Below are positions 14,639 to 63,315 of a stretch of 64,000 nt of DNA, one piece after another. The first letter of the stretch is position 1. Every line of letters starts with the position of its first letter. The DNA comes from an uncultured Candidatus Saccharibacteria bacterium (lineage in GTDB: Bacteria > Patescibacteriota > Minisyncoccia > Phycocordibacterales > JACOZG01), in the NCBI GenBank assembly GCA_964448295.1, contig CAYUVV010000001.1, positions 23,838-87,837 of the forward strand, written 5' to 3'. Under the pieces are notes generated by a model, which saw only the letters and a program-made list of their open reading frames with translations, was not told where the DNA came from and searched no databases. A program made the position numbers and the translations under genes.

Positions 14639-14725
14639 GCGTCGGTGGCGGAGTGGTCAATCGCACTTGACTGTAAATCAAGCGCCCTTCGGGCTACGTA
14701 GGTTCGAATCCTACCCGGCGCACCA
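14639..14725 (+). tRNA. tRNA-Tyr(GTA), CCA encoded
   Basis: Acceptor GCGTCGG/CCGGCGC, D-arm GCG-GAGTGGTCAAT-CGC, anticodon loop CTGTAAA, long variable arm, T-arm GTAGG-TTCGAAT-CCTAC, A-CCA. Confidence 0.8.
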
Positions 14726-14964
14726 TTTAGAAAAGGTCAATGCCTCGCGCTCGCGTCGCTCGCGCTCGGCTGTCATTTTGTATTCAATTTTGGGCTCAAA
14801 AACAAATTGGCGGTTTCGCATTCGGGGAAAAGAAAAATTTTTCAAACATCCACAAGAGGCAACACTTGCCGCCTCTTGACTTTAACGAGCCCCTTGCGGA
14901 ATACATTTTGCTCTGGGCTCTCACTTTTTATAGATTTTAAATTAAGTTTTCATAAAAGAATTTG

Positions 14965-14989
14965 CCGCCAAAGAAAAATTGGAAATTGT
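14965..14989. repeat. 25-nt exact repeat copy A (CCGCCAAAGAAAAATTGGAAATTGT), preceded by GAATTTG
   Basis: Identical 25-mer at 63181..63205. Both copies are intergenic and preceded by GAATTTG; copy B carries a 4-nt TATT insertion. Confidence 0.6.
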
Positions 14990-15109
14990 TAAAAAAGTTA
15001 ACTTTCTCATTTTAGCCGATTATTTGTGACAAAATTGACGGTCGTCAATTTTGTCACACCGAAGTGCGCATCCTTGGTTTTTAAATTAGTGAGGTTGCTT
15101 TAGTGGCGC

Positions 15110-41800: not shown

Positions 41801-44800
41801 ATGGATAGACAGAGTAGCTCACTTTCTCTCGCCGGCGTCTTTTTGGCTGCCCTTTTGTTTGCTTTAGCGCTATGGGCCGGCACCTACATCCCGATTGATA
41901 GTTTGGTTAGCGGTAGCAATCGTTTGGCGGTTGAGAAACAGTTGGCGCAAGTCGGTGGTGGCCCAACCACGGTTGTCTTGTCGGCCGCCGCGGATGCCGC
42001 CGTCCGCGGCGGCAACTTTCAGACCATAAATTACGGTAGCGGAAACGAGTTGGGAATATATCAAGCGGGTGGCCAGTGGGACATCCAACCCTATCTCCGT
42101 TTTGACCTATCTAATATTTCTGGCAATGTTACTGCCGCTCGTCTGCGTTTTTACATTGTCAATGGCGACGACTCGTCATCGCCCCGTCCGGTGAGCCTTC
42201 TCGCCGTAGACGACAATTCTTGGGATGAGACAAGTTTAAACTGGCAAAATCGGCCCAGCACCGGTTCCGCCCTCGGCTCTTTTGCTTTTGGATCAGAGAC
42301 GAGCACTTTTACCGGCTGGCAGGATGTAACCAATTATGTGTCGGGGAAGGTTGCGGCTGGCGCGGCTTCTTTTGCTCTGCGTCATAGCGCGGGCGGCGAG
42401 TATGCCGGCATTGCTTCTCGTGAGTCTGGGCAGCCGGCCGAACTGGAGGTGACTTATGACTCGACGGTGGTTACGCCGCCCACCACCCGCACGCTTGCCA
42501 CCACGGCTAATCCCAGCGCCGGTGGCACTATCAGCCGCCAACCGAATCAGACGAACTACCCTGACGGGAGCGTCGTCACCCTCACCGCCACTCCCAATCC
42601 GGGCTACCAATTCAATAACTGGTCAGGCGATCTCTCTGGCTCACAAAATCCGGTTTCGGTTCAGCTCACGCAAGACAAAACCGTGACGGCCAATTTTGGA
42701 GTGACGTCGCCGAGCGGTGGGAATAGCGGTTACGATCTAACTTGGTCTACTTATTTTGGCGGTTCAGGCGAAGATACAGTGCGTGACGTGGTTGTCGACG
42801 CTGGCGGTAATGTTTATGTGACCGGGGGTACTGGTTCTAGTAATTTTCCGCTAGTCAACCCTGCCCAACCCGCTTTTGGCGGCAATCATGATGTTTTTGT
42901 CTCCAAATTTGGCGCCAACGGCGCCCTGCTGTGGTCAACCTATCTCGGTGGTCCCGGTTACGATCGAGCTTACGCGGTGGAACTGGACGGCGTCGGTAAC
43001 GTCTATGTGGCCGGCCGGGCGGGTAGCGGTTTTCCGGTGACGTCGGGCGTTTTGCAGGCGACCTTTGCCGGCGATTCCAATGTTAATAATAACTATGGCC
43101 CACAGGATGGCTTTGTTGCTAAGTTTAATTCCAACGGGCAGAAACTGTGGGCAACCTATCTCGGCGGGCCAGACCGCAGTTTTATCCGAGACATTGACGT
43201 GGATTCTTCTGGCAACGTTTACGCTGTTCTTACTGACGTTTCCCAATCAAACGGATACCAAACGACTGGCGCTTATCAAGGAACGGTTGCCGGTGGCGCT
43301 AACGGCTTTATCGCTAAATTGAATTCAGCCGGTACGCAAATCCAGTGGGGAACTTATGTTGGCGGCGCATCGAGTGGTCCCGGGTTTGGCACTCCCTCGA
43401 TCCGGGTGGCAAGCAACGGCGAAGTGGTTGCGATGGGAACAAGCGCTTTTGCTGGTGACCCAGTCAGCAACGGTTTGCGCTCCCATGCCGGCGCTTTGGA
43501 TATGTACGTTTTACGCTTGAGCAGTGATGGCCGGACGCGGCGTTGGTCTACTTATCTTGGCGGGAACGCTGACGAATTTTCGGAAACACATTCATTGGCC
43601 CTTAACAGCGCTGGCGATGTCTATGCTGCTTTTACCACTCGCTCTAGCAATTTGCCCGGGGCGGGCGTTGGTTACCAACTAGCGTTAGGTGGAGTCTCTA
43701 ATACCGGCAATTATAACGGCGACGGTTTTGTCGCTAAATTGTCTGGTAACGGTGGAGTCCTGCTTGCCGCCACTTATCTCGGTGGCAGTTCGGGTGACGG
43801 CCTCGAGGGGGTGGGAGTAGACAGCGCTGGGGGTGTTTATGTAAGTGGGGGAACCTTCTCCGCTGATTTCCCAATTACGAGCGACGCGCGGCAAAATAGC
43901 CGCCGGGGCGAAGCAGATTGGTTTGTCTCTAAACTGACCGGCGATCTATCTTCTCTTGTTTACTCCACTTACCTTGGTGGCACCTCGAACTGTGCGGCAG
44001 CCGGAGACACGGTTTGTGATTATGCCCGTAGCGCCACAGTAAATGCCGGCGGGGATTTTTATGTTGTTGGCCATACTAATTCTAGTAATTTCCCGACGCT
44101 TGGGGCTACGCCAAGTCTTAGTACTAACCCCGCCGGGAGTAATGTCAATACCGGGGCGATTGCCAAATTTTCTACCGGCGGAGTAGTTGTCCCGCCTACG
44201 GATTACACGATTACCGCGTCTGTTAGTGGTGGTAACGGCACAATTAACCCGAGCGGCGTGGTTACTGTTTCGGCTGGCGGCTCGCGCACGTTCACTTTCA
44301 GTCCGGCCACTGGTTTTCAAGTCGGAACAGTGGTGGTTGATGGAGCTACCCTGACGCCCCCGCCTCCCACTTATACCTTTTCCAATGTTTCGAGCGCGCA
44401 CACAATAACAATTAGTTTTTCTCCCGTTGCACCCACCACCCGCACGCTTGCCACCACGGCTAATCCCAGCGCCGGTGGCACTATCAGCCGCCAACCGAAT
44501 CAGACGAACTACCCTGACGGGAGCGTCGTCACCCTCACCGCCACTCCCAATCCGGGCTACCAATTCAATAACTGGTCAGGCGATCTCTCTGGCTCACAAA
44601 ATCCGGTTTCGGTTCAGCTCACGCAAGACAAAACCGTGACGGCCAATTTTGGAGTGGTTCAAGCGGTTCAGCCTCTTTTGTTGCGTTTGGAATTTGATGA
44701 CGATAATGCCGACGGCGTGGCCACCGACTCTTCTTCCTTTGGGAACAACGGGACTTGTGTTGGCGCTGTTTGCCCACGTTACTTGAGTGCGGGGAGCGAG

Positions 44801-54867: not shown

Positions 54868-54955
54868 GGAGGGTTCGCATAGTGGTCTAGTGCGCTCGCT
54901 TGGAGAGCGAGTATGCTGCAAGGCATCAAGGGTTCGAATCCCTTACCCTCCGCCA
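54868..54955 (+). tRNA. tRNA-Ser(GGA), CCA encoded
   Basis: 88-nt type II tRNA. Acceptor GGAGGGT/ACCCTCC, anticodon loop TTGGAGA, variable-arm hairpin, T-arm AAGGG-TTCGAAT-CCCTT, G-CCA. Confidence 0.85.
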
Positions 54956-55960
54956 ATTTGCACATTCGCCGATTTGGGGATTGGTTGCCTCGCGGCTTCG
55001 CCGCTCGGCATTGAATTTTGCGGGGATTTTCCAAGCATTTTTCAAATCCAAAACCAACGCCCGATCGGCAATGCGAAAGTTCGAACCAATCTTTTTGAGA
55101 AAATCCCGTCCCGCGACGGGATTTTCTTGCAAGGCGATATTTTCGGCTTGGTCGGCTTCTTTTATGAAATCAATCATGGGTTCGAACCGATTATTGCTCT
55201 TTCGCTCAAAAGCGTTGATTTTTTCTTCCAAATCCTTTTTAGCGAGAATGAGCTTGTGCTTTTTGGCGGCGTACTCCGTTTGTGAAAGCGAGCCGTCCAA
55301 ATGTAAATCTAAAAGTTTGTCTATCTTGCTTTCCATTTCTACAAGCTCATCTCGCGTCTTTTGAGCGAAAGAGCTTTCTGCTTGGGCGGTTTCCAGTTTT
55401 TCTTTTTCCAGTTCGTTTATGCAATTTTCCGCCCAAGCAGAACACAAAGAAACTTTTTGAATTTCATTTTTGATCTGCGAGGTGATGGCGTCCTCCCGTA
55501 CATACCTTTGCTCACAGCGGACTTTTCTTTTGGTGCACCGCAAGTAGTTATGTCTTTTCTGCGTTTCAGTGGTGATAAAACAACCGCACCCGCCACAGCG
55601 GAAAAGTCCGCGATAGATATATGGTTTGAGTTTTGGCGTTTTAGGTTTTGATTTTCTCGCCATCACCTCTTGGCATTTATCAAAAAGTTTCTTTGTGATA
55701 ATCGGTTCGTGCTTTCCGTCATACAATTCGCCATTGTACTCAATTACGCCGTAGTAGATTTTATTTTTGAGTATGTACTGGTAATTGGAGACGGAAAGCA
55801 CCTTGCCTTTCTTGCCAACCAAGCCCAAGGAATTGATAATCTTTCGGATTTGAGCTAGGGGATATTCGCCAGTTGAGTACATTTCAAAAGCCCGCTTGAT
55901 AAACTTTGATTTTTCTTTGTCCACAACTATTTTGCGGCTACAAATTGAAATAATCTCCAA
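54926..55960 (-). pseudogene. Large serine recombinase lacking the N-terminal catalytic resolvase domain (truncated integrase remnant)
   Basis: Starts at the recombinase domain (YPLAQIRKIINSLGLVGKKGKVLSVSNYQYILKNKIYYG). It has a zinc ribbon CGGCGCFITTE...LRC and a coiled-coil tail. The last 10 codons are antisense to the tRNA-Ser 3' end. Confidence 0.6.
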
Positions 55961-57805: not shown

Positions 57806-57844
57806 TATAGCCGCAAAAATTTTTCGCCGTGGGAGCGAGGGCGC

Positions 57845-57877
57845 GGCGGAAGGGGGGGGTGTGGGGGGAATTCCGCC
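57845..57877. repeat. G-rich hairpin repeat, copy 1 (GGCGGAA-GGGGGGGGTGTGGGGGGAA-TTCCGCC)
   Basis: A palindromic GGCGGAA/TTCCGCC stem encloses a G8-TGT-G6 loop. A similar copy lies at 61954. Confidence 0.6.
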
Positions 57878-57922
57878 GCGCCCGAGCGTAGTCCCGCCGC
57901 CCGCGCGCCAGCGCGGAGCCGA

Positions 57923-58000
57923 GCAGAACATTTTGCCTGTCCTTTTAGAAGAATTTTTTGGTGGCGCGCGCAAAATCAAAATGAAGGGCAAAATGTTATG
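57923..58000. repeat. Imperfect direct repeat, left copy (TCCTTTTAGAAGAA...GCGCGCGCAAAATCA)
   Basis: About 75% similar to 60975..61055 in the same orientation. Both copies lie just outside the 106-bp inverted repeats. Confidence 0.5.
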
Positions 58001-58027
58001 CGAGGCAGGCCGCCGCTTGCGGCGGCT

Positions 58028-58133
58028 GGCGGCGGGGCTGGCTCCGGCTCGCAGGCGAAAAGTTTCCTCCCCCAACCCCCCTCCACTTTTTGCCTGCTCG
58101 CTGGGGAAAAATTACACGTCAGATTGACGAGAT
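58028..58133. repeat. Perfect 106-bp inverted repeat, left copy (IR-L)
   Basis: Exact reverse complement of 60845..60950. It contains a C5AAC7 tract and ends with TTGACGAGAT at its inner edge. Confidence 0.9.
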
Positions 58134-58176
58134 GATGATTTACGAAAACCTTCAACAATTATATTGTAACATTACA

Positions 58177-58881
58177 ATGGAATCTAATAAAGATATAAAA
58201 CGCAAAATTATTCCTATAGGTGGTGGCTTATTGCGTTTGGGCGAAACGATTTTGATAGATAAGTTTATTGTAAAAGAAAGCGGAAAAAAAAATCCGAACG
58301 TTTTATTTATACCCACCGCAAGTAAAGATTTGCCAGCATACTCTGCCGTTTTTCGTCGTGTGTATGAAAAATTAGGGTGCCGAGTAAAAATCTTACGTTT
58401 ATTTAATAAAAGAAAATTCTCTCGAACAACAGTGAAGGAACTCATCACAAATGCCGATATTATTTATGTCGGCGGTGGTGATTATGACACCTTGTTTTCA
58501 GTATGGAAGAAACATAAAATTGTTCCTTTCATACAGTCAGCATACCAACAAGGAACTATCCTCACCGGGTTAAGTGCGGGGTGTGCCATCTGGTATGAGT
58601 ATCTCGTAGACAGGGATAAAAACAAAAAACCCCACCTTAAAATAGGTCTCGGCATACTTAAGGGTGCCGTGATTCCTCACTATAAAAGTGAGAATACATT
58701 TCCTCCTAAAATTGATAAGACAAAAACCCTTATTACTGCCATTGAAGATAGGTGTGCGGTGATATACATTGATGAACACCTAAGAGGTTCTGTGCCAGTA
58801 GCCAAAGAAAAAGCCTTTACAATTCGCCCTCCTTATGTTAAAAAGATAGGGGTAACTTTGTACTTTCACAAATCGCGTTAA
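58177..58881 (+). CDS. S51-family serine peptidase (dipeptidase E / cyanophycinase-like)
   Basis: IIPIGGG ... IYVGGGDYDTLFSVW ... LTGLSAGCAIWYEY, matching the S51 Ser-nucleophile region. Upstream in-frame ATGs at 58132/58135 lie inside IR-L. Confidence 0.65.
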   Translation: MESNKDIKRKIIPIGGGLLRLGETILIDKFIVKESGKKNPNVLFIPTASKDLPAYSAVFRRVYEKLGCRVKILRLFNKRKFSRTTVKELITNADIIYVGGGDYDTLFSVWKKHKIVPFIQSAYQQGTILTGLSAGCAIWYEYLVDRDKNKKPHLKIGLGILKGAVIPHYKSENTFPPKIDKTKTLITAIEDRCAVIYIDEHLRGSVPVAKEKAFTIRPPYVKKIGVTLYFHKSR

Positions 58882-58900
58882 ACCAAAAAGGAGGTGGCAA

Positions 58901-59968
58901 ATGATCTCGAAAATCCCGCGCCCCCTCCAATTCGGAGATGGGGTGGCTTTGGTCAATCCGGCAGGAGTGCTTCCGGAGCGGTTCAAAAACCAACACGGAT
59001 ACGTCAAGGCACATCTTGAGGAACTTGGATTCGCGGTAAAAGACCTCGTAATCGAAAGTGGCTGGGAGGACGCACAAAGACGCAGCGAAACACTAATGTC
59101 GGCTTTCACCGACCCACAAGTGAAAGCGGTACTGCCTCTTTGTGGCGGTATAAGAATTTACGACGTTCTTCCGCTGATTGATTACGAGGTGTTAGCTAAT
59201 CATCCGAAGATCATCTGTGGTTCAAGCGAGCTTTCGGCTCTTGTGGTGACGATTGCTGAGAAGGCGGGCATTGTAACGTTTTTCGGTCCGCACCTGAACT
59301 TTCTGAACCCAAAGGCGTCAAAACTTGAGAACAGATTCACGGTAAGGAGCTTTTGGAATATGCTCCAATGGGATTGGCACGGAAGAAACGGCTTGAGCAA
59401 GAACGAGGCGTATCACTTTTTCGCCGCACCTCGAAAGCCAACGCTTCCGGTAACAGTTCGTAACATTTACCGTGACCCGACGCTCATCATAGACGACCGC
59501 TACAGGGACAATTTCTACTTCACCACTTCTAGTATGGATGTGACTGGAAAGCTCTTGATCGGATCACTTGCGGTCATGGCGAAGCTTTGTGATGAAGGCT
59601 TGTGTCCCGATGTAACGGATAAGATCGTCATGCTCGATTCGCTGGATATGTCATTCGAAACGATTGTCGAATTGATCCAGCGCTTCAATGCTCACTGCGA
59701 TCTTTCCCGCGCCGCAGCTGTTGTCTTTTCCTCGCTCGCCGAGAGGACGGATCGAAAGAATCGCTTGCATCCGGAATTGAGAGATTCTGATCGGGTGAAG
59801 GGTTTTCTTCAGGAAGTCTCGGGACTTCTTAGAGGAAGGCCGCCGCTCTTTCACGGTTTTCCCGTTGGACACTGTACGTACAAACTCACTCTGCCGATTG
59901 GGATTACCGCCTCCATCGTTGTGGAAACGGGCGACTTGCTACTCACGGAGTTCCCGCATCAACAATAA
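58901..59968 (+). CDS. S66-family LD-carboxypeptidase (LdcA / microcin-C7 immunity MccF-like)
   Basis: 355 aa. ICGSSELSALVV matches the S66 nucleophile-Ser block. A GGAGGTG SD lies upstream. Confidence 0.6.
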   Translation: MISKIPRPLQFGDGVALVNPAGVLPERFKNQHGYVKAHLEELGFAVKDLVIESGWEDAQRRSETLMSAFTDPQVKAVLPLCGGIRIYDVLPLIDYEVLANHPKIICGSSELSALVVTIAEKAGIVTFFGPHLNFLNPKASKLENRFTVRSFWNMLQWDWHGRNGLSKNEAYHFFAAPRKPTLPVTVRNIYRDPTLIIDDRYRDNFYFTTSSMDVTGKLLIGSLAVMAKLCDEGLCPDVTDKIVMLDSLDMSFETIVELIQRFNAHCDLSRAAAVVFSSLAERTDRKNRLHPELRDSDRVKGFLQEVSGLLRGRPPLFHGFPVGHCTYKLTLPIGITASIVVETGDLLLTEFPHQQ

Positions 59969-60003
59969 AGGCCGAATAGAATTTGTTCTATTCGGCCTTT
60001 TTA
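59967..60003. terminator. Bidirectional rho-independent terminator between convergent genes
   Basis: Perfect 13-bp stem AGGCCGAATAGAA / TTCTATTCGGCCT with a 4-nt loop, flanked by AAA on one side and TTTT on the other. Confidence 0.8.
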
Positions 60004-60777
60004 CTTTTCCGCAAGGAGGTCATTGATGAACCGATCGTTCTCATAAGCTACGCCGTATTCGAGGTTCAACGCCATGAGTTGAAGGCGTTCCCGAAGCACG
60101 GCATCGTGACTCAGTCGCTCAGCAAGAGTCACCAGCGCCTCTCTCGTTTCTTTCTTGTAGTTTTGGAGTTTGATGTACACCGCATTCCGAAAGAATATAA
60201 CGAGATTAAGATCGGAAGCGTTGAGAGAATCAAACTTTGCTCGGTCAAGTTCGTAAGCTAGTTCGCGACGCATGGCGAGCATGAGTTCAAGATATGCTGA
60301 TGAAGCCTCTTGAACCCGCCGTTTACCTACCAACTCAACGAAGCGTGACGTTGCAGTATCGACCGTGTCGCCGGAAAAGATTTTGCAACCGAACGATACG
60401 GTAACATCCTCATCAGCGAGATGAGCGTTTTCTCTGATGAAGTTGTTAACCTCATCTTCCAACAGTGAGAAAAACTCGTTTACGACCGCCTCGTTAGTTG
60501 CTACTCCGGTAGCGAAGATTTCTTCTCCCGAAGGAATCATGCAAAACACCGGAATTACTTTTGGGTGCTTCTTGATAAACCCATACATGAACGCGCCAAT
60601 GAGGCGATTGTAGATGTCTACAAGATTTTCCGCCAATGGCCGTCCGTATCGCGATACGAAGACTCCAAGATTGTCGAGATCTCCAGTGACCCCAAATAGA
60701 AACAGATCTCGATTGCGGTCATAGGCCTCGACAACTTTCAAAACCTTTCTGCTCCAGATACGCTGGTGCTTTTTCAT
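60001..60777 (-). CDS. Stand-alone GGDEF-like nucleotide cyclase (palm) domain protein with an SGEEI active-site variant and a ~90-aa helical C-terminal extension
   Basis: The GGDEF-fold blocks appear in order: DLDNLGVFVSRYGRPLAENLV (like DIDHFKxINDTFGHxxGDEVL), CMIPSGEEIFATG (like RYGGEEF) and DVTVSFGC (like TISIGV). No sensor domain or I-site RxxD. Strong SD AAAGGAGA. Confidence 0.55.
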   Translation of the reverse strand: MKKHQRIWSRKVLKVVEAYDRNRDLFLFGVTGDLDNLGVFVSRYGRPLAENLVDIYNRLIGAFMYGFIKKHPKVIPVFCMIPSGEEIFATGVATNEAVVNEFFSLLEDEVNNFIRENAHLADEDVTVSFGCKIFSGDTVDTATSRFVELVGKRRVQEASSAYLELMLAMRRELAYELDRAKFDSLNASDLNLVIFFRNAVYIKLQNYKKETREALVTLAERLSHDAVLRERLQLMALNLEYGVAYENDRFINDLLAEK

Positions 60778-60825
60778 AAGTCATCTCCTTTTCTGTTTTG
60801 TGAATGTGCTGTATGAACTTGCCAT

Positions 60826-60854
60826 ATATTACATTATCTTTTTAATCTCGTCAA
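60826..60854 (-). promoter_or_regulatory. Near-consensus promoter TTGACG-17-TAATAT for the GGDEF-like gene, with the -35 inside IR-R
   Basis: On the minus strand the -35 TTGACG is the inner end of IR-R, followed by a 17-nt spacer and TAATAT. The same TTGACG ends IR-L, facing the S51 gene. Confidence 0.45.
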
Positions 60855-60950
60855 TCTGACGTGTAATTTTTCCCCAGCGAGCAGGCAAAAAGTGGAGGGG
60901 GGTTGGGGGAGGAAACTTTTCGCCTGCGAGCCGGAGCCAGCCCCGCCGCC
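60845..60950. repeat. Perfect 106-bp inverted repeat, right copy (IR-R)
   Basis: Exact reverse complement of 58028..58133. Confidence 0.9.
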
Positions 60951-60974
60951 TGCCGAACGTTCTCGGCAGAGACC

Positions 60975-61055
60975 CGCAGAAAAATGTTCTCATCCTTTTA
61001 GAAGAAAAAATCGGGCGCGCGCAAAATCAGAAAAGCGGAGAACATTTTTCTGCGG
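60975..61055. repeat. Imperfect direct repeat, right copy, followed by a second GGCGGCGGGGC motif
   Basis: Same orientation as the copy at 57923-58000. It is followed by GGCGGCGGGGCGG, resembling the outer end of IR-L. Confidence 0.5.
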
Positions 61056-61515
61056 GGCACGCGAGCGAAGCGAGCGGCGGCGGGGCGGTTCAGTCCTCGT
61101 CCGGATGTTCGTCAAAGTAGGTTCGGATTTTAACCAAAAGGTACCGCCAATTAGGAATTTTCAAAGGGTTTTTTGGCGAAAAAGAAATGCTTTTATCAAT
61201 CAAAATATGGTTCGAGCCGATTTATTTTAAAAATGTTGTCATTTCTCCGTTATCCCTAGATTTAAATAAATTTTCCGCTTGATTCAAGGATTTAATCCAC
61301 GCACGAGCCAGTTCGAGCCAAGACACGGTCCATACGCTTACACAGCTCACGATATGGGCTATGGTGGATGGATTCATTGGGATTCGTCGGGGGCGGCTTT
61401 TTACTAGTATCCAACAAATCCGCCATTGTTCACGGTAGATTTTTATACCTGCAAAACTTCTGTTATACTGAAACGTTGTATGAAATTGTGTTTTTTACTT
61501 TTATAATAGTTACCA

Positions 61516-61817
61516 TGGAACAACAAATTAAAGAAATTTTCCAAACAAGAGACAGAGCAGTCGCTGAAAAAAATAAGGACTTGCTTTTATCAACTCAAAT
61601 TAATGAAATTCCAAAATCAGGGAGCGATGGTTACCTAAAAACTGACAAACTTGTTTCTAAAGTATTGTATATCCATCAGGATGATAAAGATTTACAGCTC
61701 TATCTTGCTTTGATACAAGAGGATTATTTTTACAATGGTAAATTTTCCCATAGAGGTTATTTACTTTATAAATTAAGAAACGACGGAAAATTATTAATTA
61801 CCGAAATAATATGGTAA
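61516..61817 (+). CDS. Hypothetical small protein (~100 aa)
   Basis: Start chosen at MEQQIKEIF. AT-rich. The track ORF starts at 61368. Confidence 0.4.
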
Positions 61818-61953
61818 AAACACAACATCACATAACAGCAAACGTTAAAGGAAATAGAATTTACCGCCAAACTGGGCAAAGCCCAGAGTTCCGCTAAAAG
61901 CGGAACAAAAAACTTGAAATCGTCCAATCCGAAAGGGTCGCTTCTGCGGTCGG

Positions 61954-61988
61954 GCGGAAGGGGGGTTTGGGGGGAATTCCGTCCGCCC
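61954..61988. repeat. G-rich hairpin repeat, copy 2 (GGCGGAA-GGGGGGTTTGGGGGGAA-TTCCGTCCGCC)
   Basis: Direct, imperfect copy of 57845..57877. Confidence 0.6.
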
Positions 61989-62191: not shown

Positions 62192-62464
62192 ATGAGCAGA
62201 AAGAACTGGTACTTGGTGTACACGCACACCAACGAGATGGAAGCCGGAACGTTTCGTGACGGTATCGAAGACATGGAAGTCGCTTTGAAAGCGACCACCG
62301 AAGCCGAAGCTGTCGCGGAAGCGGAATCGAAGTGGGCTGAGATCGTCAAGGAACGCGACGAGTATTGGGAGAAGTGCAAGAAGACATGGGCACATCCTCC
62401 CGCCAGTCCAACCGAGTGGGGCGCTCGCAACCCTCGTGTCATCTACAAAATCTCGCTACAATGA
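62192..62464 (+). CDS. Hypothetical acidic small protein
   Basis: 90 aa with a strong SD (ACGGAGGTAAAAA-ATG). G+C is higher than the adjacent island DNA. Confidence 0.5.
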   Translation: MSRKNWYLVYTHTNEMEAGTFRDGIEDMEVALKATTEAEAVAEAESKWAEIVKERDEYWEKCKKTWAHPPASPTEWGARNPRVIYKISLQ

Positions 62465-62475
62465 GGAGGATGACG

Positions 62476-63096
62476 ATGACACCCGAACAACGCTGGGCGA
62501 CCCTGTGGCAACGCCTCGGTGCGCAAGGGGACGCAAACGCGGTCTACAACGGCCTTGTTGTGCGATACTCCGAACCGCACCGAGCGTACCACACGCTCGA
62601 ACACATCGGACACTGCATCGACGAACTCGAACAAGTCCGGCACCTCGCAGCAAATTCTGATGCTGTGGAGTTGGCTCTCTGGTATCACGACGCAATCTAC
62701 GATACCAAAGCCAAGAACAGCGAGGAGCGGAGTGCGGCGCTCGCGGTGGAAATGGTGAGAAGTGCTTCGTTGCCCGGCAACCTCGGTCAATCGGTAGCGA
62801 GTCTCATCATGGCAACGAGACACACCGCAGTTCCCACCGACCCCGATGTTCAGCTTCTCGTGGACATCGATCTCTCGATCCTCGGGCAAACCGAGGCGAG
62901 ATTCGATGAATACGAGCGGCAAGTTCGCAAGGAGTACGAGTGGGTGCCGGAAGATCAGTTTGTTGCCGGACGGTCGGCGATACTCAAGTCGTTTATCGAC
63001 CGACCGAACATCTACTCGACGCAGTTCTTCCGCAACAAATACGAAGCGCAAGCCAGAGCGAACATCGTTCGATCGCTTGCCCGCCTCCGGGCGTAA
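62476..63096 (+). CDS. HD-superfamily metal-dependent phosphohydrolase-like protein
   Basis: H...H, HD and D motifs (AYHTLEHIGHC ... LALWYHDAIYD). SD AGGAGG lies 6 nt upstream of the ATG at 62476. Confidence 0.55.
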   Translation: MTPEQRWATLWQRLGAQGDANAVYNGLVVRYSEPHRAYHTLEHIGHCIDELEQVRHLAANSDAVELALWYHDAIYDTKAKNSEERSAALAVEMVRSASLPGNLGQSVASLIMATRHTAVPTDPDVQLLVDIDLSILGQTEARFDEYERQVRKEYEWVPEDQFVAGRSAILKSFIDRPNIYSTQFFRNKYEAQARANIVRSLARLRA

Positions 63097-63137: not shown

Positions 63138-63180
63138 AAAGAACTATTTTGTGCGTGCTTCGCACGCTCGAATTTGTATT

Positions 63181-63205
63181 CCGCCAAAGAAAAATTGGAA
63201 ATTGT
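63181..63205. repeat. 25-nt exact repeat copy B (CCGCCAAAGAAAAATTGGAAATTGT)
   Basis: Identical to 14965..14989. Confidence 0.6.
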
Positions 63206-63315
63206 CAGTGTGCGCGGCGAGGATCAAATTCCGTTCGAGCTATTTTTAAAATACACCGCCAAGAATTACATTTCGAAAAATCAAGGTTGGAAGCCTCGGC
63301 GCAAAGCGCCTCGGC

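What the first reader, a model, noticed from the sequence alone, without database searches (positions are those of the whole stretch)
57845..61988. 2.7-kb cassette bounded by perfect 106-bp inverted repeats, encoding S51 peptidase + S66 LD-carboxypeptidase + a stand-alone GGDEF-like cyclase
Seen directly in the sequence: 58028-58133 and 60845-60950 are exact reverse complements over 106 bp. They enclose three genes, two co-directional peptidases and a convergent GGDEF-like gene separated by a perfect 13-bp bidirectional terminator. Just outside the IRs lie about 80-bp imperfect direct repeats, and outside those lie G-rich hairpins with a GGCGGAA/TTCCGCC stem around a G-tract loop. The inner end of each IR is TTGACGAG; at the right end this forms a near-consensus TTGACG-17-TAATAT promoter facing into the cassette. 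The IRs therefore appear to give the two outermost genes symmetric -35 elements. No transposase is present, and the only nearby recombinase has lost its catalytic domain. The gene content is unusual: S66 (LdcA/MccF) and S51 (PepE/cyanophycinase) both cleave after or at Asp/L-D peptide bonds, and they are paired with a sensor-less nucleotide cyclase. Two hypotheses follow, both inference. One is a peptidoglycan-stem-peptide or aspartyl-nucleotide (microcin-C-like) processing or immunity module. The other is a cyclase-plus-effector signalling module of the kind found in defence islands. Perfect identity of 106-bp IRs implies recent formation or ongoing homogenisation or inversion.
Basis: partly seen in the sequence, partly recalled or inferred. 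Interest (0 to 1): 0.8.

Follow-up and report, generated by a model that had tools for sequence, protein, structure and literature searches.

The report
Swappable inverted-repeat gene cassette in Patescibacteria
The perfect inverted repeats are real and belong to a widespread family of hairpin-bearing boundary modules that bracket interchangeable accessory-gene cassettes in uncultivated Patescibacteria; the cassette here carries a conserved, previously undescribed trio of a GGDEF/Cas10-like nucleotide enzyme and two serine peptidases.

Summary
Arms 58023-58133 and 60845-60955 are 110/111 complementary. They enclose S51 and S66 peptidase genes, a convergent third gene (G3) and a 15-bp bidirectional terminator.

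G3, S66 and S51 form a functional unit. The linkage persists down to about 30% identity, in four gene orders, with overlapping genes and G3-S51 fusions.

The repeat is not private to this locus. A metagenome scan found its hairpin core as inward-facing pairs in 15 further loci. These pairs flank about 11 unrelated cargo sets (TIR+MORC, CYTH+radical SAM, tRNA-synthetase paralogues and others). None has a transposase. They often lie beside tRNA genes and a large serine recombinase, as here, where the recombinase is degraded.

I read this as an exchangeable, invertible cargo cassette of recombinase-borne islands. Its cargo is probably a nucleotide-centred conflict module.

The biochemical function and the recombination mechanism are inferred, not shown.

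The parts
54868..54955 (+). tRNA-Ser(GGA). It marks the probable integration end of the island.
   Evidence: ARAGORN and Rfam tRNA, 56.3 bits. The 3' end of the recombinase gene overlaps it on the opposite strand.
54926..55960 (-). Truncated large serine recombinase; the catalytic resolvase domain is missing.
   Evidence: Only Pfam Recombinase and Zn_ribbon_recom match. It aligns to residues 171-489 of the full-length L116 recombinase at 40% identity.
57840..57882 (+). Outer G-loop hairpin 'A' (left): GGCGCGGCGGAA, then a G8TGTG6 loop, then TTCCGCCGCGCC.
   Evidence: Folds at -25.4 kcal/mol. Homologous copies with compensatory stem changes occur in L035, L122, L065 and L105.
57918..58006 (+). 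Hairpin 'B' (left), with its loop in the opposite orientation to the canonical C-B module.
   Evidence: 29-nt arms. The fold gives z -4.2 with 22 outer pairs. Loop orientation was compared.
58023..58133 (+). Left arm of the inverted repeat ('C' element). The hairpin stem is 58051-58063 / 58085-58097 around a C-rich loop, and the arm ends at GATTGACGAG.
   Evidence: The same element occurs in 57 copies across 45 loci.
58177..58881 (+). S51-family serine peptidase.
   Evidence: PF03575 at 4.7e-37. Ser133 and His168 are conserved in 12 cassette homologues. It scores below the NCBIfam cut-offs for cyanophycinase and PepE.
58901..59968 (+). S66-family serine peptidase, closest to MccF-like proteins.
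   Evidence: PF02016 and PF17676 match. The best solved relatives are MccF-like 4e5s and 3tla. Ser109, His324 and Trp152 are conserved in 20 homologues.
59967..60000 (.). Bidirectional intrinsic-terminator-like hairpin between the convergent genes.
   Evidence: 15-bp perfect stem, z -8.3. It is conserved in related loci.
60001..60777 (-). G3: stand-alone GGDEF/Cas10-like palm nucleotidyltransferase with a C-terminal helical domain. It belongs to a new small family.
60826..60854 (-). Promoter-like site TTGACG-17-TAATAT for G3. Its -35 hexamer lies in the inner end of the right repeat arm.
   Evidence: It is conserved upstream of G3 in other loci.
60845..60955 (-). Right arm of the inverted repeat ('C' element).
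60973..61056 (+). Hairpin 'B' (right), part of the canonical C-B module. The module continues to about 61165.
   Evidence: z -3.8 and -6.4. The region is at least 95% similar to the outward modules of L054, L087, L118 and L143, which carry other cargo.
61171..61326 (-). Remnant of a second large serine recombinase gene, residues 424-475.
   Evidence: tblastn, 58% identity over 52 aa, E 7e-12.
61952..61988 (+). Outer G-loop hairpin 'A' (right), a direct repeat of the left A.
63177..63308 (+). Weak remnant of a recombinase N-terminal (catalytic) coding region, pointing outward.
   Evidence: tblastn E 5.4 alone is not significant. It does contain a perfect 25-mer shared with a second such remnant at 14965-14989.

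Best explanation
The 2.7-kb segment is one cargo cassette of a genomic island borne by a large serine recombinase. The island sits next to tRNA-Ser in a Patescibacteria (CPR) genome.

The 111-bp inverted repeat is a pair of copies of a conserved non-coding boundary module. The module consists of a 'C' hairpin with a C/G-rich loop, usually followed outward by a long 'B' hairpin and a GC-rich stretch. In many related organisms it brackets cargo segments of unrelated content, always as an inward-facing pair.

Inferred mechanism of the vehicle:
- The two inverted copies serve as recombination substrates. These could be sites for the associated serine recombinase, or simply stretches of long homology.
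- Recombination between the two copies of one cassette inverts the segment and keeps the arms identical.
- Recombination with another cassette that carries the same modules exchanges the cargo without deleting it.

The cargo here is a conserved three-enzyme module. G3 is a catalytically intact GGDEF/Cas10-type palm nucleotidyltransferase. It works together with an MccF-like S66 hydrolase and an S51 hydrolase.

Inferred mechanism of the cargo (about 35% likely): G3 makes or modifies a small nucleotide product, and the two serine hydrolases cleave an amide bond between an acidic amino acid or peptide and a nucleotide. That is the reaction of MccF and MccG on processed microcin C. The module would then detoxify or turn over an aminoacyl-nucleotide in inter-microbial or phage conflict.
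For: Shown:
- The repeat is real and independently assembled at its inner junctions.
- Its hairpin core occurs in 57 copies in 45 loci. Sixteen full pairs (15 new loci plus this window), together with a partial pair in L003, are all ordered + then -. They flank about 11 different cargo sets, none with a transposase.
- The arms within a pair are 90-375 nt long and near-identical. The 17-38 nt just inside the hairpin are specific to each cassette type.
- L044 and L056 share a 92%-identical recombinase and outer module, yet their cargo differs from the hairpin inward.
- The outward module on the right side of the window is at least 95% like those of L054, L087, L118 and L143, which carry other cargo.
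- Recombinase genes lie 0.3-3 kb outward of one arm in L044, L047, L056, L060, L085, L116, L125 and L143. Remnants lie on both sides of the cassette in the window.
- That recombinase family is very large in CPR bacteria.
- The cassette occurs in both orientations next to tRNA-Ser(tga) (L055 versus L069) and relative to one flank (L050 versus L056).
- The cassette is about 80-88% identical in DNA between genomes whose SecY proteins are at most 69% identical to the window's. It sits in unrelated housekeeping contexts.
- The module is a unit. G3 and S66 are adjacent in 22 of 25 genome loci and S51 in 13. There are four gene orders, overlapping stop and start codons, and G3-S51 fusion proteins.
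- G3 has the palm fold, and its catalytic residues are invariant down to about 20% identity.
- The nucleophile Ser and the His are conserved in both peptidases.

From the literature: both the S66 (MccF) and S51 (MccG) families hydrolyse aspartyl-nucleotides (PMC9239234).
Against: - No recombination event was observed directly. The orientation differences could come from independent insertions, or from assembler choices at long repeats.
- No target-site duplication or empty site was found.
- The hairpin does not resemble known serine-recombinase att sites, which have no 21-nt spacer.
- The recombinase in this window is dead, so any activity would have to come from elsewhere in the cell or be in the past.
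- Several G3 cassettes have the module on one side only, or on neither (L157, L012, L001, L006).
- Palm enzymes are not known to form aminoacyl-nucleotide bonds.
- The S51 protein falls below the equivalog cut-offs of characterised subfamilies. It was not placed in the MccG clade.
- No mcc biosynthesis or export genes are linked to the module.
Confidence: 0.55

Rival explanations
1. Second-messenger defence system. G3 constitutively or inducibly makes a cyclic di- or oligonucleotide. The S66 and S51 peptidases are the nucleotide-controlled effectors, following Panoptes, CBASS or type III CRISPR logic. They would be unleashed when a phage triggers or depletes the signal.
For: - 5 of 26 family members weakly hit the Cas10-Cmr2 palm2 model.
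- Sister cassettes carry defence-type cargo, namely ThsB-TIR + MORC-like ATPase + 8xMP and CYTH + radical SAM + kinase.
- The third gene is swapped between variants (S51, an alpha/beta serine hydrolase, or none, plus a methyltransferase in some), as effectors often are.
- MccF-type S66 enzymes have a nucleotide-binding pocket, and Trp152 is conserved here (the pocket is inference).
Against: - Neither peptidase has a recognisable signal-sensing domain (CARF, SAVED, STING or similar) or a membrane segment.
- PADLOC finds nothing for any of the three proteins.
- Peptidases of these families are not known effectors.
- Fusion of a cyclase to its effector is unusual in such systems.
Confidence: 0.25
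2. The repeats are terminal inverted repeats of a non-autonomous transposon (a mobile insertion cassette). A DDE transposase encoded elsewhere would move it, and the serine recombinase would only be a neighbour.
For: - The arms always face inward, the cargo varies, and no transposase lies inside.
- Many contigs break exactly at the arms, as expected for multicopy ends.
- MIC231 elements of Bacillus cereus are a precedent (my own knowledge).
Against: - No target-site duplication is seen at any pair with both flanks available.
- No autonomous copy with a transposase was found among 45 loci.
- Arms of 100-375 nt that include internal hairpins and a promoter-like site are far longer than transposase-binding ends.
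- The outer edge of homology differs from locus to locus.
Confidence: 0.1
3. The hairpin modules are regulatory or insulating elements, such as transcription barriers, RNA-stability hairpins or small-RNA genes, selected at both edges of horizontally acquired operons. The repeat symmetry would then be a by-product, not a recombination device.
For: - The B and A hairpins keep their structure through compensatory changes while their loops stay constant.
- The inner end of C supplies the -35 hexamer of the G3 promoter.
- The outer part of the module in L056, L047 and L012 carries an outward promoter-like site.
Against: - Independent regulatory elements would not be identical over 100-375 nt within each locus while differing between loci.
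- The hairpins lie upstream of the cassette promoters and lack U-tracts.
- No Rfam family matches.
- Cargo replacement exactly at the hairpin edge and the linkage to recombinases would be left unexplained.
Confidence: 0.07
4. The three genes are ordinary housekeeping for peptidoglycan or peptide recycling: an LD-carboxypeptidase and an aspartyl dipeptidase, regulated by a c-di-NMP cyclase.
For: S66 includes LdcA and S51 includes PepE. A weak hit to muramoyltetrapeptide carboxypeptidase scores 63.8 bits.
Against: - That score is far below the 378-bit cut-off, and the closest solved relatives are MccF-like rather than LdcA.
- The module is rare (85 clusters), patchy and horizontally moved. It sits among accessory cargo.
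Confidence: 0.05

Closest known systems
Invertible segments served by a neighbouring serine recombinase (Mu G / Gin, P1 C / Cin)
   Same: A segment of a few kb is bracketed by inverted repeats, which are 0.6 kb long in P1. A serine recombinase gene lies just outside it. Both orientations are found (Gin and Cin are from my own knowledge).
   Different: The recombinase here is of the large type, with Recombinase and Zn-ribbon domains, not a small invertase. The cargo is not a pair of alternative gene ends but a whole, self-promoted operon set that differs between loci. No switching has been demonstrated.
Cassette chromosome and tRNA-targeting islands moved by large serine recombinases (SCC elements, tycheposon-like elements)
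   Same: A large serine recombinase lies at an island end that overlaps a conserved gene or tRNA. The accessory cargo is modular and variable, and degraded copies remain.
   Different: Those elements are bounded by short direct repeats. An internal cargo unit bracketed by long, hairpin-rich inverted repeats is not part of their description (my own knowledge; none was found).
Integron gene cassettes / mobile insertion cassettes (MIC231)
   Same: Small promoter-carrying or promoter-less cargo units of very varied content are delimited by structured, hairpin-forming repeats. They contain no mobility gene of their own.
   Different: There is no tyrosine integrase IntI, no single attC per cassette, and no array in a single orientation. 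Compared with MICs, there are no transposase-type ends and no target duplication.
MccF (S66) and MccG (S51) immunity peptidases against microcin C-like peptidyl-nucleotides
   Same: The two peptidase families are the same, and the catalytic Ser and His are retained. The closest solved S66 relatives are MccF-like (PMC9239234).
   Different: The module is not in an mcc cluster. It is always tied to a palm nucleotidyltransferase that mcc clusters lack. S51 was not placed in the MccG clade, and no activity has been tested.
Minimal Cas10-like cyclases (mCpol, Panoptes OptS) and GGDEF diguanylate cyclases
   Same: The palm fold and the acidic catalytic residues are shared. The protein is small, stand-alone and sensor-less.
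   Different: There is no sequence-model match. A 120-residue helical C-terminal domain carries invariant Arg and Lys. The motif is SGEE rather than GGDEF or GGDD, and there is no I-site. The partners are soluble peptidases, not 2TM-beta or CARF effectors.

Membership tests
GGDEF diguanylate cyclase (PF00990) | Match to the family's sequence model | tested here: not met
   No Pfam hit for the window protein at E up to 10. None of 26 family members hits GGDEF.
GGDEF diguanylate cyclase (PF00990) | Palm fold (beta-alpha-alpha-beta-beta-alpha-beta) superimposable on solved cyclases | tested here: met
GGDEF diguanylate cyclase (PF00990) | Metal-binding Asp in strand 1 and the GG(D/E)EF signature | tested here: inconclusive
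   D33 is invariant, and so are G84 and E85. E86 is at least 90% conserved. The first Gly of the signature is Ser, giving IPSGEEIF.
GGDEF diguanylate cyclase (PF00990) | Synthesis of c-di-GMP from GTP | not testable with these tools
   This needs an enzyme assay.
mCpol / Cas10 palm (Panoptes OptS) | Sequence or fold relationship to Cas10 palm domains | tested here: inconclusive
mCpol / Cas10 palm (Panoptes OptS) | Adjacent 2TM-beta or CARF-TM effector gene | tested here: not met
   The conserved neighbours are S66, S51, an alpha/beta serine hydrolase and a methyltransferase. PADLOC gives no hit.
MccF-type S66 peptidase | S66 N- and C-terminal domains with the catalytic Ser and His | tested here: met
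   PF02016 and PF17676 match. Ser109 and His324 are conserved in 20 homologues. The best solved relatives are MccF-like. The third triad residue is not conserved at 90%.
MccF-type S66 peptidase | Hydrolysis of aminoacyl-nucleotide amide bonds; location in an mcc cluster | tested here: not met
   Only the location part was tested and it is not met: no mccA, B, C, D or E-like neighbours were found among 25 loci. The hydrolytic activity cannot be tested with these tools.
S51 peptidases (PepE, cyanophycinase, MccG) | Family model and catalytic Ser/His | tested here: met
   PF03575 at 4.7e-37. Ser133 and His168 are invariant in 12 homologues.
S51 peptidases (PepE, cyanophycinase, MccG) | Orthology to a characterised subfamily | tested here: not met
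   Cyanophycinase scores 57.2 bits against a cut-off of 126.6. PepE scores 37 bits against 156. Placement in MccG clade V was not tested.
Integron gene cassette | One attC per cassette, arrays in a single orientation, and an IntI tyrosine integrase | tested here: not met
   The sites come as inverted pairs. The associated recombinase is of the serine type.
Transposon / mobile insertion cassette | Terminal inverted repeats with a flanking target-site duplication and a cognate transposase | tested here: not met
   The repeats are present. The flanks show no direct duplication, and no transposase was found in or near 45 loci.
Invertible segment served by a serine recombinase | Inverted sites, an adjacent recombinase, and both orientations in nature | tested here: inconclusive
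   Inverted sites and recombinase adjacency are met. Opposite orientations are seen in L055 versus L069 and in L050 versus L056. Independent insertion or an assembly choice is not excluded, and the recombinase in the window is truncated.

The most novel reading that the evidence does not exclude
Patescibacteria may possess a previously unrecognised cassette-exchange platform. Conserved multi-hairpin modules (A, B and C) would be the sites at which their ubiquitous large serine recombinase inverts and swaps whole accessory-gene cassettes between genomes. This would be a natural equivalent of recombinase-mediated cassette exchange and a serine-recombinase counterpart of the integron. One of the circulating cassettes, G3-S66-S51, would be a new kind of nucleotide-based immune or immunity system whose output enzymes are peptidases acting on amino-acid-nucleotide conjugates.
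Probability: 0.25. Interest if true: 0.9.

Novelty: new variant of a known kind. Interest (0 to 1): 0.72.

Why it matters
Patescibacteria make up a large share of bacterial diversity. They have tiny genomes and are mostly uncultivated, and how they acquire and shuffle accessory functions is poorly understood.

A conserved boundary module that brackets interchangeable cargo next to their commonest recombinase would give a concrete, searchable handle on that gene flow. The cargo seen so far includes defence-like genes, resistance-like genes and nucleotide-metabolism genes. The same handle would provide a ready catalogue of candidate conflict systems.

The G3-S66-S51 trio joins a new branch of the GGDEF/Cas10 palm enzymes to two peptidase families whose only shared known substrate is an aspartyl-nucleotide. 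That yields a specific biochemical hypothesis that can be tested with recombinant proteins.

If the recombinase does act on these hairpin modules, the pair could also be of interest as a tool for cassette exchange.

Tried and rejected
- Rfam at E up to 1 over 54.5-64 kb found only the tRNA plus chance matches. None of hairpins A, B or C matches a described RNA family.
- PADLOC and NCBIfam gave no system-level or equivalog match for any of the three proteins.
- The single-sequence structure model of G3 was too poor to use (pLDDT 58.5). It was replaced by the alignment-based model.
- A profile search of solved structures by sequence returned only a spurious ribosomal protein.
- The afdb50 fold library was not available. 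The viral library gave only phage GGDEF proteins.
- G3 is absent from the phage and plasmid collections.
- RNAalifold on a MAFFT alignment of B elements returned no structure, because indels misaligned the arms. I used per-sequence folds instead.
- For the C hairpin I saw only one covarying position (A-T versus G-C). It tracks two subfamilies, so I do not count it as strong evidence.
- I looked for a downstream repeat of the tRNA-Ser 3' end that would mark the other island end and found none.
- I looked for target-site duplications next to the arms and found none.
- A motif G(G/A/T)CGG inside the arms is enriched (14 of 38 unique sequences against 2.0 +/- 1.4 in shuffles) but not universal. 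I do not call it the crossover site.
- I considered that the C loop is a relic of a tRNA 3' end, because a real tRNA-Gly CCA end abuts the 3' arm in L003 and L091. This stays a lead only.
- I considered a composite origin from two inverted recombinase elements. It fits the remnants in the window but not most other loci.
- Literature searches found no description of the module or of such cassettes.

Full report
**1. The observation**

The repeat finder reports arms 58023-58133 and 60845-60955, 111 nt and 99% complementary, 2711 nt apart. Across the whole window the next-longest inverted repeat is 35 nt at 77%, so chance is not an issue.

Between the arms lie three ORFs:
- 58177-58881 (+), which matches Peptidase_S51 at 4.7e-37;
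- 58901-59968 (+), which matches both S66 domains;
- 60001-60777 (-), which has no Pfam match.

The convergent genes are separated by a 15-bp perfect hairpin, z -8.3 against shuffles, which scores as a terminator on both strands.

Outside the arms lie two ~85-nt elements at 57918-58006 and 60973-61056. Each is a long hairpin, and their loops are in direct orientation. Further out lie two G-loop hairpins at 57840-57882 and 61952-61988. I call these three kinds of element C (the repeat arms), B and A.

The TTGACG-17-TAATAT site before the third gene is found by the promoter scan. Nothing comparable is found before S51.

An independent k=31 assembly of another sequencing run contains a contig 100% identical to 58104-60874. 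It stops 30 nt into each arm. The inner junctions are therefore not an artefact of this assembly. The outer junctions remain unchecked.

**2. The host and the island**

SecY in the window is 62-69% identical to proteins named Patescibacteria, Paceibacterota, Vogelbacteria and Nomurabacteria. The genome is therefore a member of the Candidate Phyla Radiation.

The region from about 55 to 62 kb has 35-48% G+C against 50-60% around it, apart from the GC-rich hairpins. It starts at tRNA-Ser (54868-54955).

The 3' end of a large serine recombinase gene (54926-55960, -) overlaps the tRNA. This gene keeps the Recombinase and zinc-ribbon domains. It aligns only to residues 171-489 of a full-length relative, so the catalytic domain is gone.

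Further recombinase debris lies at 61171-61326 (-). A weaker trace lies at 63177-63308 (+), and more lies beside tRNA-Tyr near 14.7-15.0 kb.

**3. The third protein**

G3 has no match in Pfam, NCBIfam or PADLOC.

Its relatives are few. A search of 5.8 billion proteins found 49 clusters. A profile search of 1.84 billion representatives found 85, nearly all stand-alone proteins of about 250-270 residues.

A model built on 26 homologues has mean pLDDT 91.6.
- Foldseek adds Cas10/Csm1 palm domains.
- Five family members weakly hit the Cas10-Cmr2 second palm model.

Across 42 members, down to about 20% identity, D33, R46, V53, G84, E85, R170 and K181 are invariant. D35, E86, F129, G130, D178, R197, N198 and K208 are nearly so. 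These include the strand-1 acidic residue and the SGEE counterpart of GGDEF. They also include basic residues in a C-terminal helical domain that has no structural match.

I conclude that G3 is an active palm nucleotidyltransferase of a new family. 'GGDEF-like' is right for fold and chemistry. Membership of the GGDEF or mCpol families is not established.

**4. The three genes are one functional module**

In 25 loci fetched from species-representative genomes, S66 is adjacent to G3 in 22 and S51 in 13. Four arrangements occur:
- G3 convergent with S66-S51, as in this window;
- the same arrangement with a PF06821 serine hydrolase in place of S51;
- G3-S66 with overlapping stop and start codons;
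- G3-S51-S66, followed by a methyltransferase or a second S66.

Two representatives are G3-S51 fusion proteins (P0068 and P0116).

The nucleophile Ser and the catalytic His are conserved in both peptidases. A Trp (W152) in the S66 insertion is also conserved.

The best solved relatives of the S66 protein are MccF-like enzymes rather than LdcA. The S51 protein scores below the cut-offs for cyanophycinase and PepE.

The literature shows that MccF (S66) and MccG (S51) both destroy the aspartyl-nucleotide warhead of microcin C-type antibiotics (PMC9239234). That is the only substrate class I know of that the two families share.

**5. The cassette moves between genomes**

The segment 58138-60857 is 78-88% identical in DNA to segments in other Patescibacteria contigs. 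There it sits between unrelated housekeeping genes: infB/rbfA/ksgA, enolase/RNase Y/sigma factor, dnaB/recR/rmuC, and the dnaK operon.

G3 is 80-86% identical to proteins from MAGs named Roizmanbacteria, Tagabacteria and Paceibacterota. Apart from one 84% relative, SecY is at most 69% identical to anything else. The cassette is therefore younger than the genomes that carry it.

**6. The repeat belongs to a family**

About half of the hits are unrelated. The rest carry a conserved hairpin:
- 5' arm GCTCGC(A/G)GGCAAAAAGT;
- a C-rich loop, TTCCTCCCCCCAACCCCCTCC or a close variant;
- 3' arm ACTTTTTGCC(T/C)GCTCGC.

There are 57 copies in 45 loci.

Fifteen loci have two copies, always + then -, spaced 1.5-5.8 kb apart. 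With the window that makes 16 of 16 full pairs facing inward, plus a partial pair in L003 with the same orientation.

Only a few pairs enclose G3-S66-S51 (L050, L056, L069). The others enclose unrelated cargo:
- two TrpRS/TyrRS-like paralogues with two unknown genes;
- a Kelch protein with a VanY/S11 carboxypeptidase;
- GNAT + methyltransferase + radical SAM;
- radical SAM-SPASM + a metallopeptidase;
- a NUDIX / deoxynucleoside kinase / glycosyltransferase / HAD set;
- GNAT-ASCH proteins;
- ThsB-TIR + MORC-like ATPase + 8xMP;
- CYTH + radical SAM + thymidylate kinase;
- two sets of unknown genes.

None contains a transposase.

Within a locus the two arms are near-identical over 90-375 nt. L130 has 114 of 114 identical, and L056 has about 375 nt. 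The 17-38 nt just inside the hairpin are identical within a pair but differ between cargo types.

Many contigs begin or end inside an arm. This is expected when a repeat is longer than the assembler's word size.

**7. The module outside the hairpin**

Reading outward from C, many loci share the same series of elements:
- a GC-rich stretch (CCCCGCCGCC);
- a short variable hairpin;
- the B hairpin;
- GGCGGCGGGGC;
- then 100-150 nt that in several loci holds an outward promoter-like site.

The right side of the window is at least 95% like the corresponding stretch of L054, L087, L118 and L143, whose cargo differs.

B folds with 16-24 closing pairs in 10 of 12 loci (z at most -2.4). Its distal stem sequences differ between loci but stay complementary, and a loop motif stays constant.

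The B unit occurs in both orientations relative to C. This explains why the two B copies in the window are direct while the C copies are inverted.

A has the same stem base (GCGAGC) and the same G6-TT-G6 loop as C read on the other strand. Its stems show compensatory changes between the window, L035 and L122. I regard A and C as one hairpin superfamily.

No Rfam family matches any of them.

**8. Link to the recombinase and to tRNA genes**

Full-length large serine recombinase genes lie 0.3-3 kb outward of one arm in L044, L047, L056, L060, L085, L116, L125 and L143. Remnants occur in L073, L137 and the window. Most loci are short contigs, so this count is a lower bound.

The recombinase family is very large and well conserved in CPR bacteria. 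At least 7787 clusters fall below 1e-20, and the best 120 are 72-100% identical. Names include Brenner-, Giovannoni-, Kuenen-, Adler-, Moran- and Jorgensenbacteria.

In L116 and in the window, the 3' end of the gene overlaps a tRNA gene on the other strand.

C elements sit about 100 nt after tRNA-Ser(tga) in L055 and L069. In L003 and L091 the 3' arm directly follows the CCA end of a tRNA-Gly.

**9. Evidence for exchange and inversion**

L044 and L056 share a 92%-identical recombinase and outer module up to the hairpin, and differ from there inward. Because the shared part is 8% diverged, this is not one genome assembled twice.

L055 and L069 have a homologous tRNA-Ser neighbour. In L055 the G3 end of the cassette faces the tRNA, and in L069 the S51 end does.

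L050 and L056 carry a 99.97%-identical cassette, yet a 3.4-kb flank is joined to opposite ends. In that case an assembler could have taken the wrong exit from a 375-nt repeat, so I count it only as suggestive.

No empty site and no target duplication were found.

Some G3 cassettes carry the module on the S51 side only (L012, L157). Another carries it partly on the G3 side (L001), and another not at all (L006).

**10. Interpretation**

Shown:
- The repeat is real.
- It is a copy pair of a conserved, structured boundary module.
- Such pairs bracket many different cargo sets in Patescibacteria.
- The module is linked to a large serine recombinase and to tRNA genes.
- G3-S66-S51 is a conserved functional unit with intact active sites, and it has spread horizontally.

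Inferred:
- The module pairs are recombination substrates. Recombination within a cassette would invert the segment and homogenise the arms, and recombination between cassettes would exchange cargo.
- I cannot say whether the recombinase or general homologous recombination does this.
- The hairpin does not look like a classical serine-recombinase att site.
- In this window the recombinase is dead, so the cassette is probably now fixed.

For the cargo, I favour chemistry centred on an amino-acid-nucleotide conjugate. Three observations point that way: the substrate shared by the two peptidase families, the obligate partnership with a nucleotidyltransferase, and the fusions. I put this at roughly 35%.

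A Panoptes- or CBASS-like signalling system with peptidase effectors is the main rival (about 25%). It is favoured by the defence-type cargo of sister cassettes.

Ordinary muropeptide recycling is unlikely.

**11. Novelty**

I found no description of the G3 family, of the three-gene module, or of inverted-repeat-bracketed cassettes in these bacteria.

The parts have precedents: invertible segments next to serine recombinases, recombinase-borne islands at tRNA genes, gene cassettes with structured boundaries, and MccF/MccG immunity enzymes. The combination does not match any of them on their defining features. I therefore rate it a new variant of known kinds rather than a new category.

Noticed in passing
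window 42479-42703 and 44432-44656: A 225-nt perfect direct repeat lies 1953 nt apart, in a region with other weaker repeats (42800-42850 / 44045-44095). It may be a repetitive surface-protein gene.
   Followed up: no
window 14699-14845 (-), 14946-14990 (+), 63177-63308 (+): Fragments of large serine recombinase genes lie beside tRNA-Tyr (14639-14725) and at the far right of the island. A perfect 25-mer (14965-14989 = 63181-63205) lies in the N-terminal coding remnant of both. This suggests repeated integration and decay, or rearrangement between two elements.
   Followed up: partly
L035:10800-11079 (IMG/VR UViG_3300032070_000632, 77 kb): A contig classified as viral ends in an A hairpin followed by a B hairpin, without a C element. 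Its last ~3.6 kb has almost no convincing ORFs.
   Followed up: partly
L046:59-4372, L066:3068-7381, L126:8976-13289: One sister cassette carries two divergent class-I TrpRS/TyrRS-like paralogues plus two genes with no family match, all between the same hairpin repeats. It could be an antibiotic-resistant synthetase or a new conflict system.
   Followed up: partly
L130:78-2794 and L134:36-2924: Two sister cassettes carry defence-like sets. L130 has an 8xMP membrane protein, a ThsB-type TIR and a MORC-like GHKL ATPase. L134 has CYTH, radical SAM, a thymidylate kinase and a GreA-like protein.
   Followed up: partly
proteins P0068, P0116, P0117: P0068 and P0116 are natural fusions of G3 with an S51 peptidase. 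P0117 joins a YebC/TACO1 N-terminal domain to the C-terminal half of G3.
   Followed up: partly
L003:8686-8776, L091:3627-3715: The CCA end of a tRNA-Gly gene runs straight into the 3' arm of the C hairpin (CTTTTTGCC.GCTCGC). The C loop (..AACCCCCTCCA) resembles a tRNA 3' end, so the element may derive from a tRNA attachment site.
   Followed up: partly
window 57905-58020 versus 60960-61070; L060, L134, L157, L056: The ~150-nt B unit is bracketed by CCCCGCCGCC...GGCGGCGGGGC and occurs in both orientations relative to the C hairpin in different loci. It behaves like a small invertible or MITE-like unit nested in the larger repeat.
   Followed up: partly
window 61515-61817 (+), 62192-62464 (+), 62365-63096 (+): ORFs to the right of the cassette have no match in Pfam, NCBIfam or PADLOC, and no homologue in any fetched locus.
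   Followed up: partly
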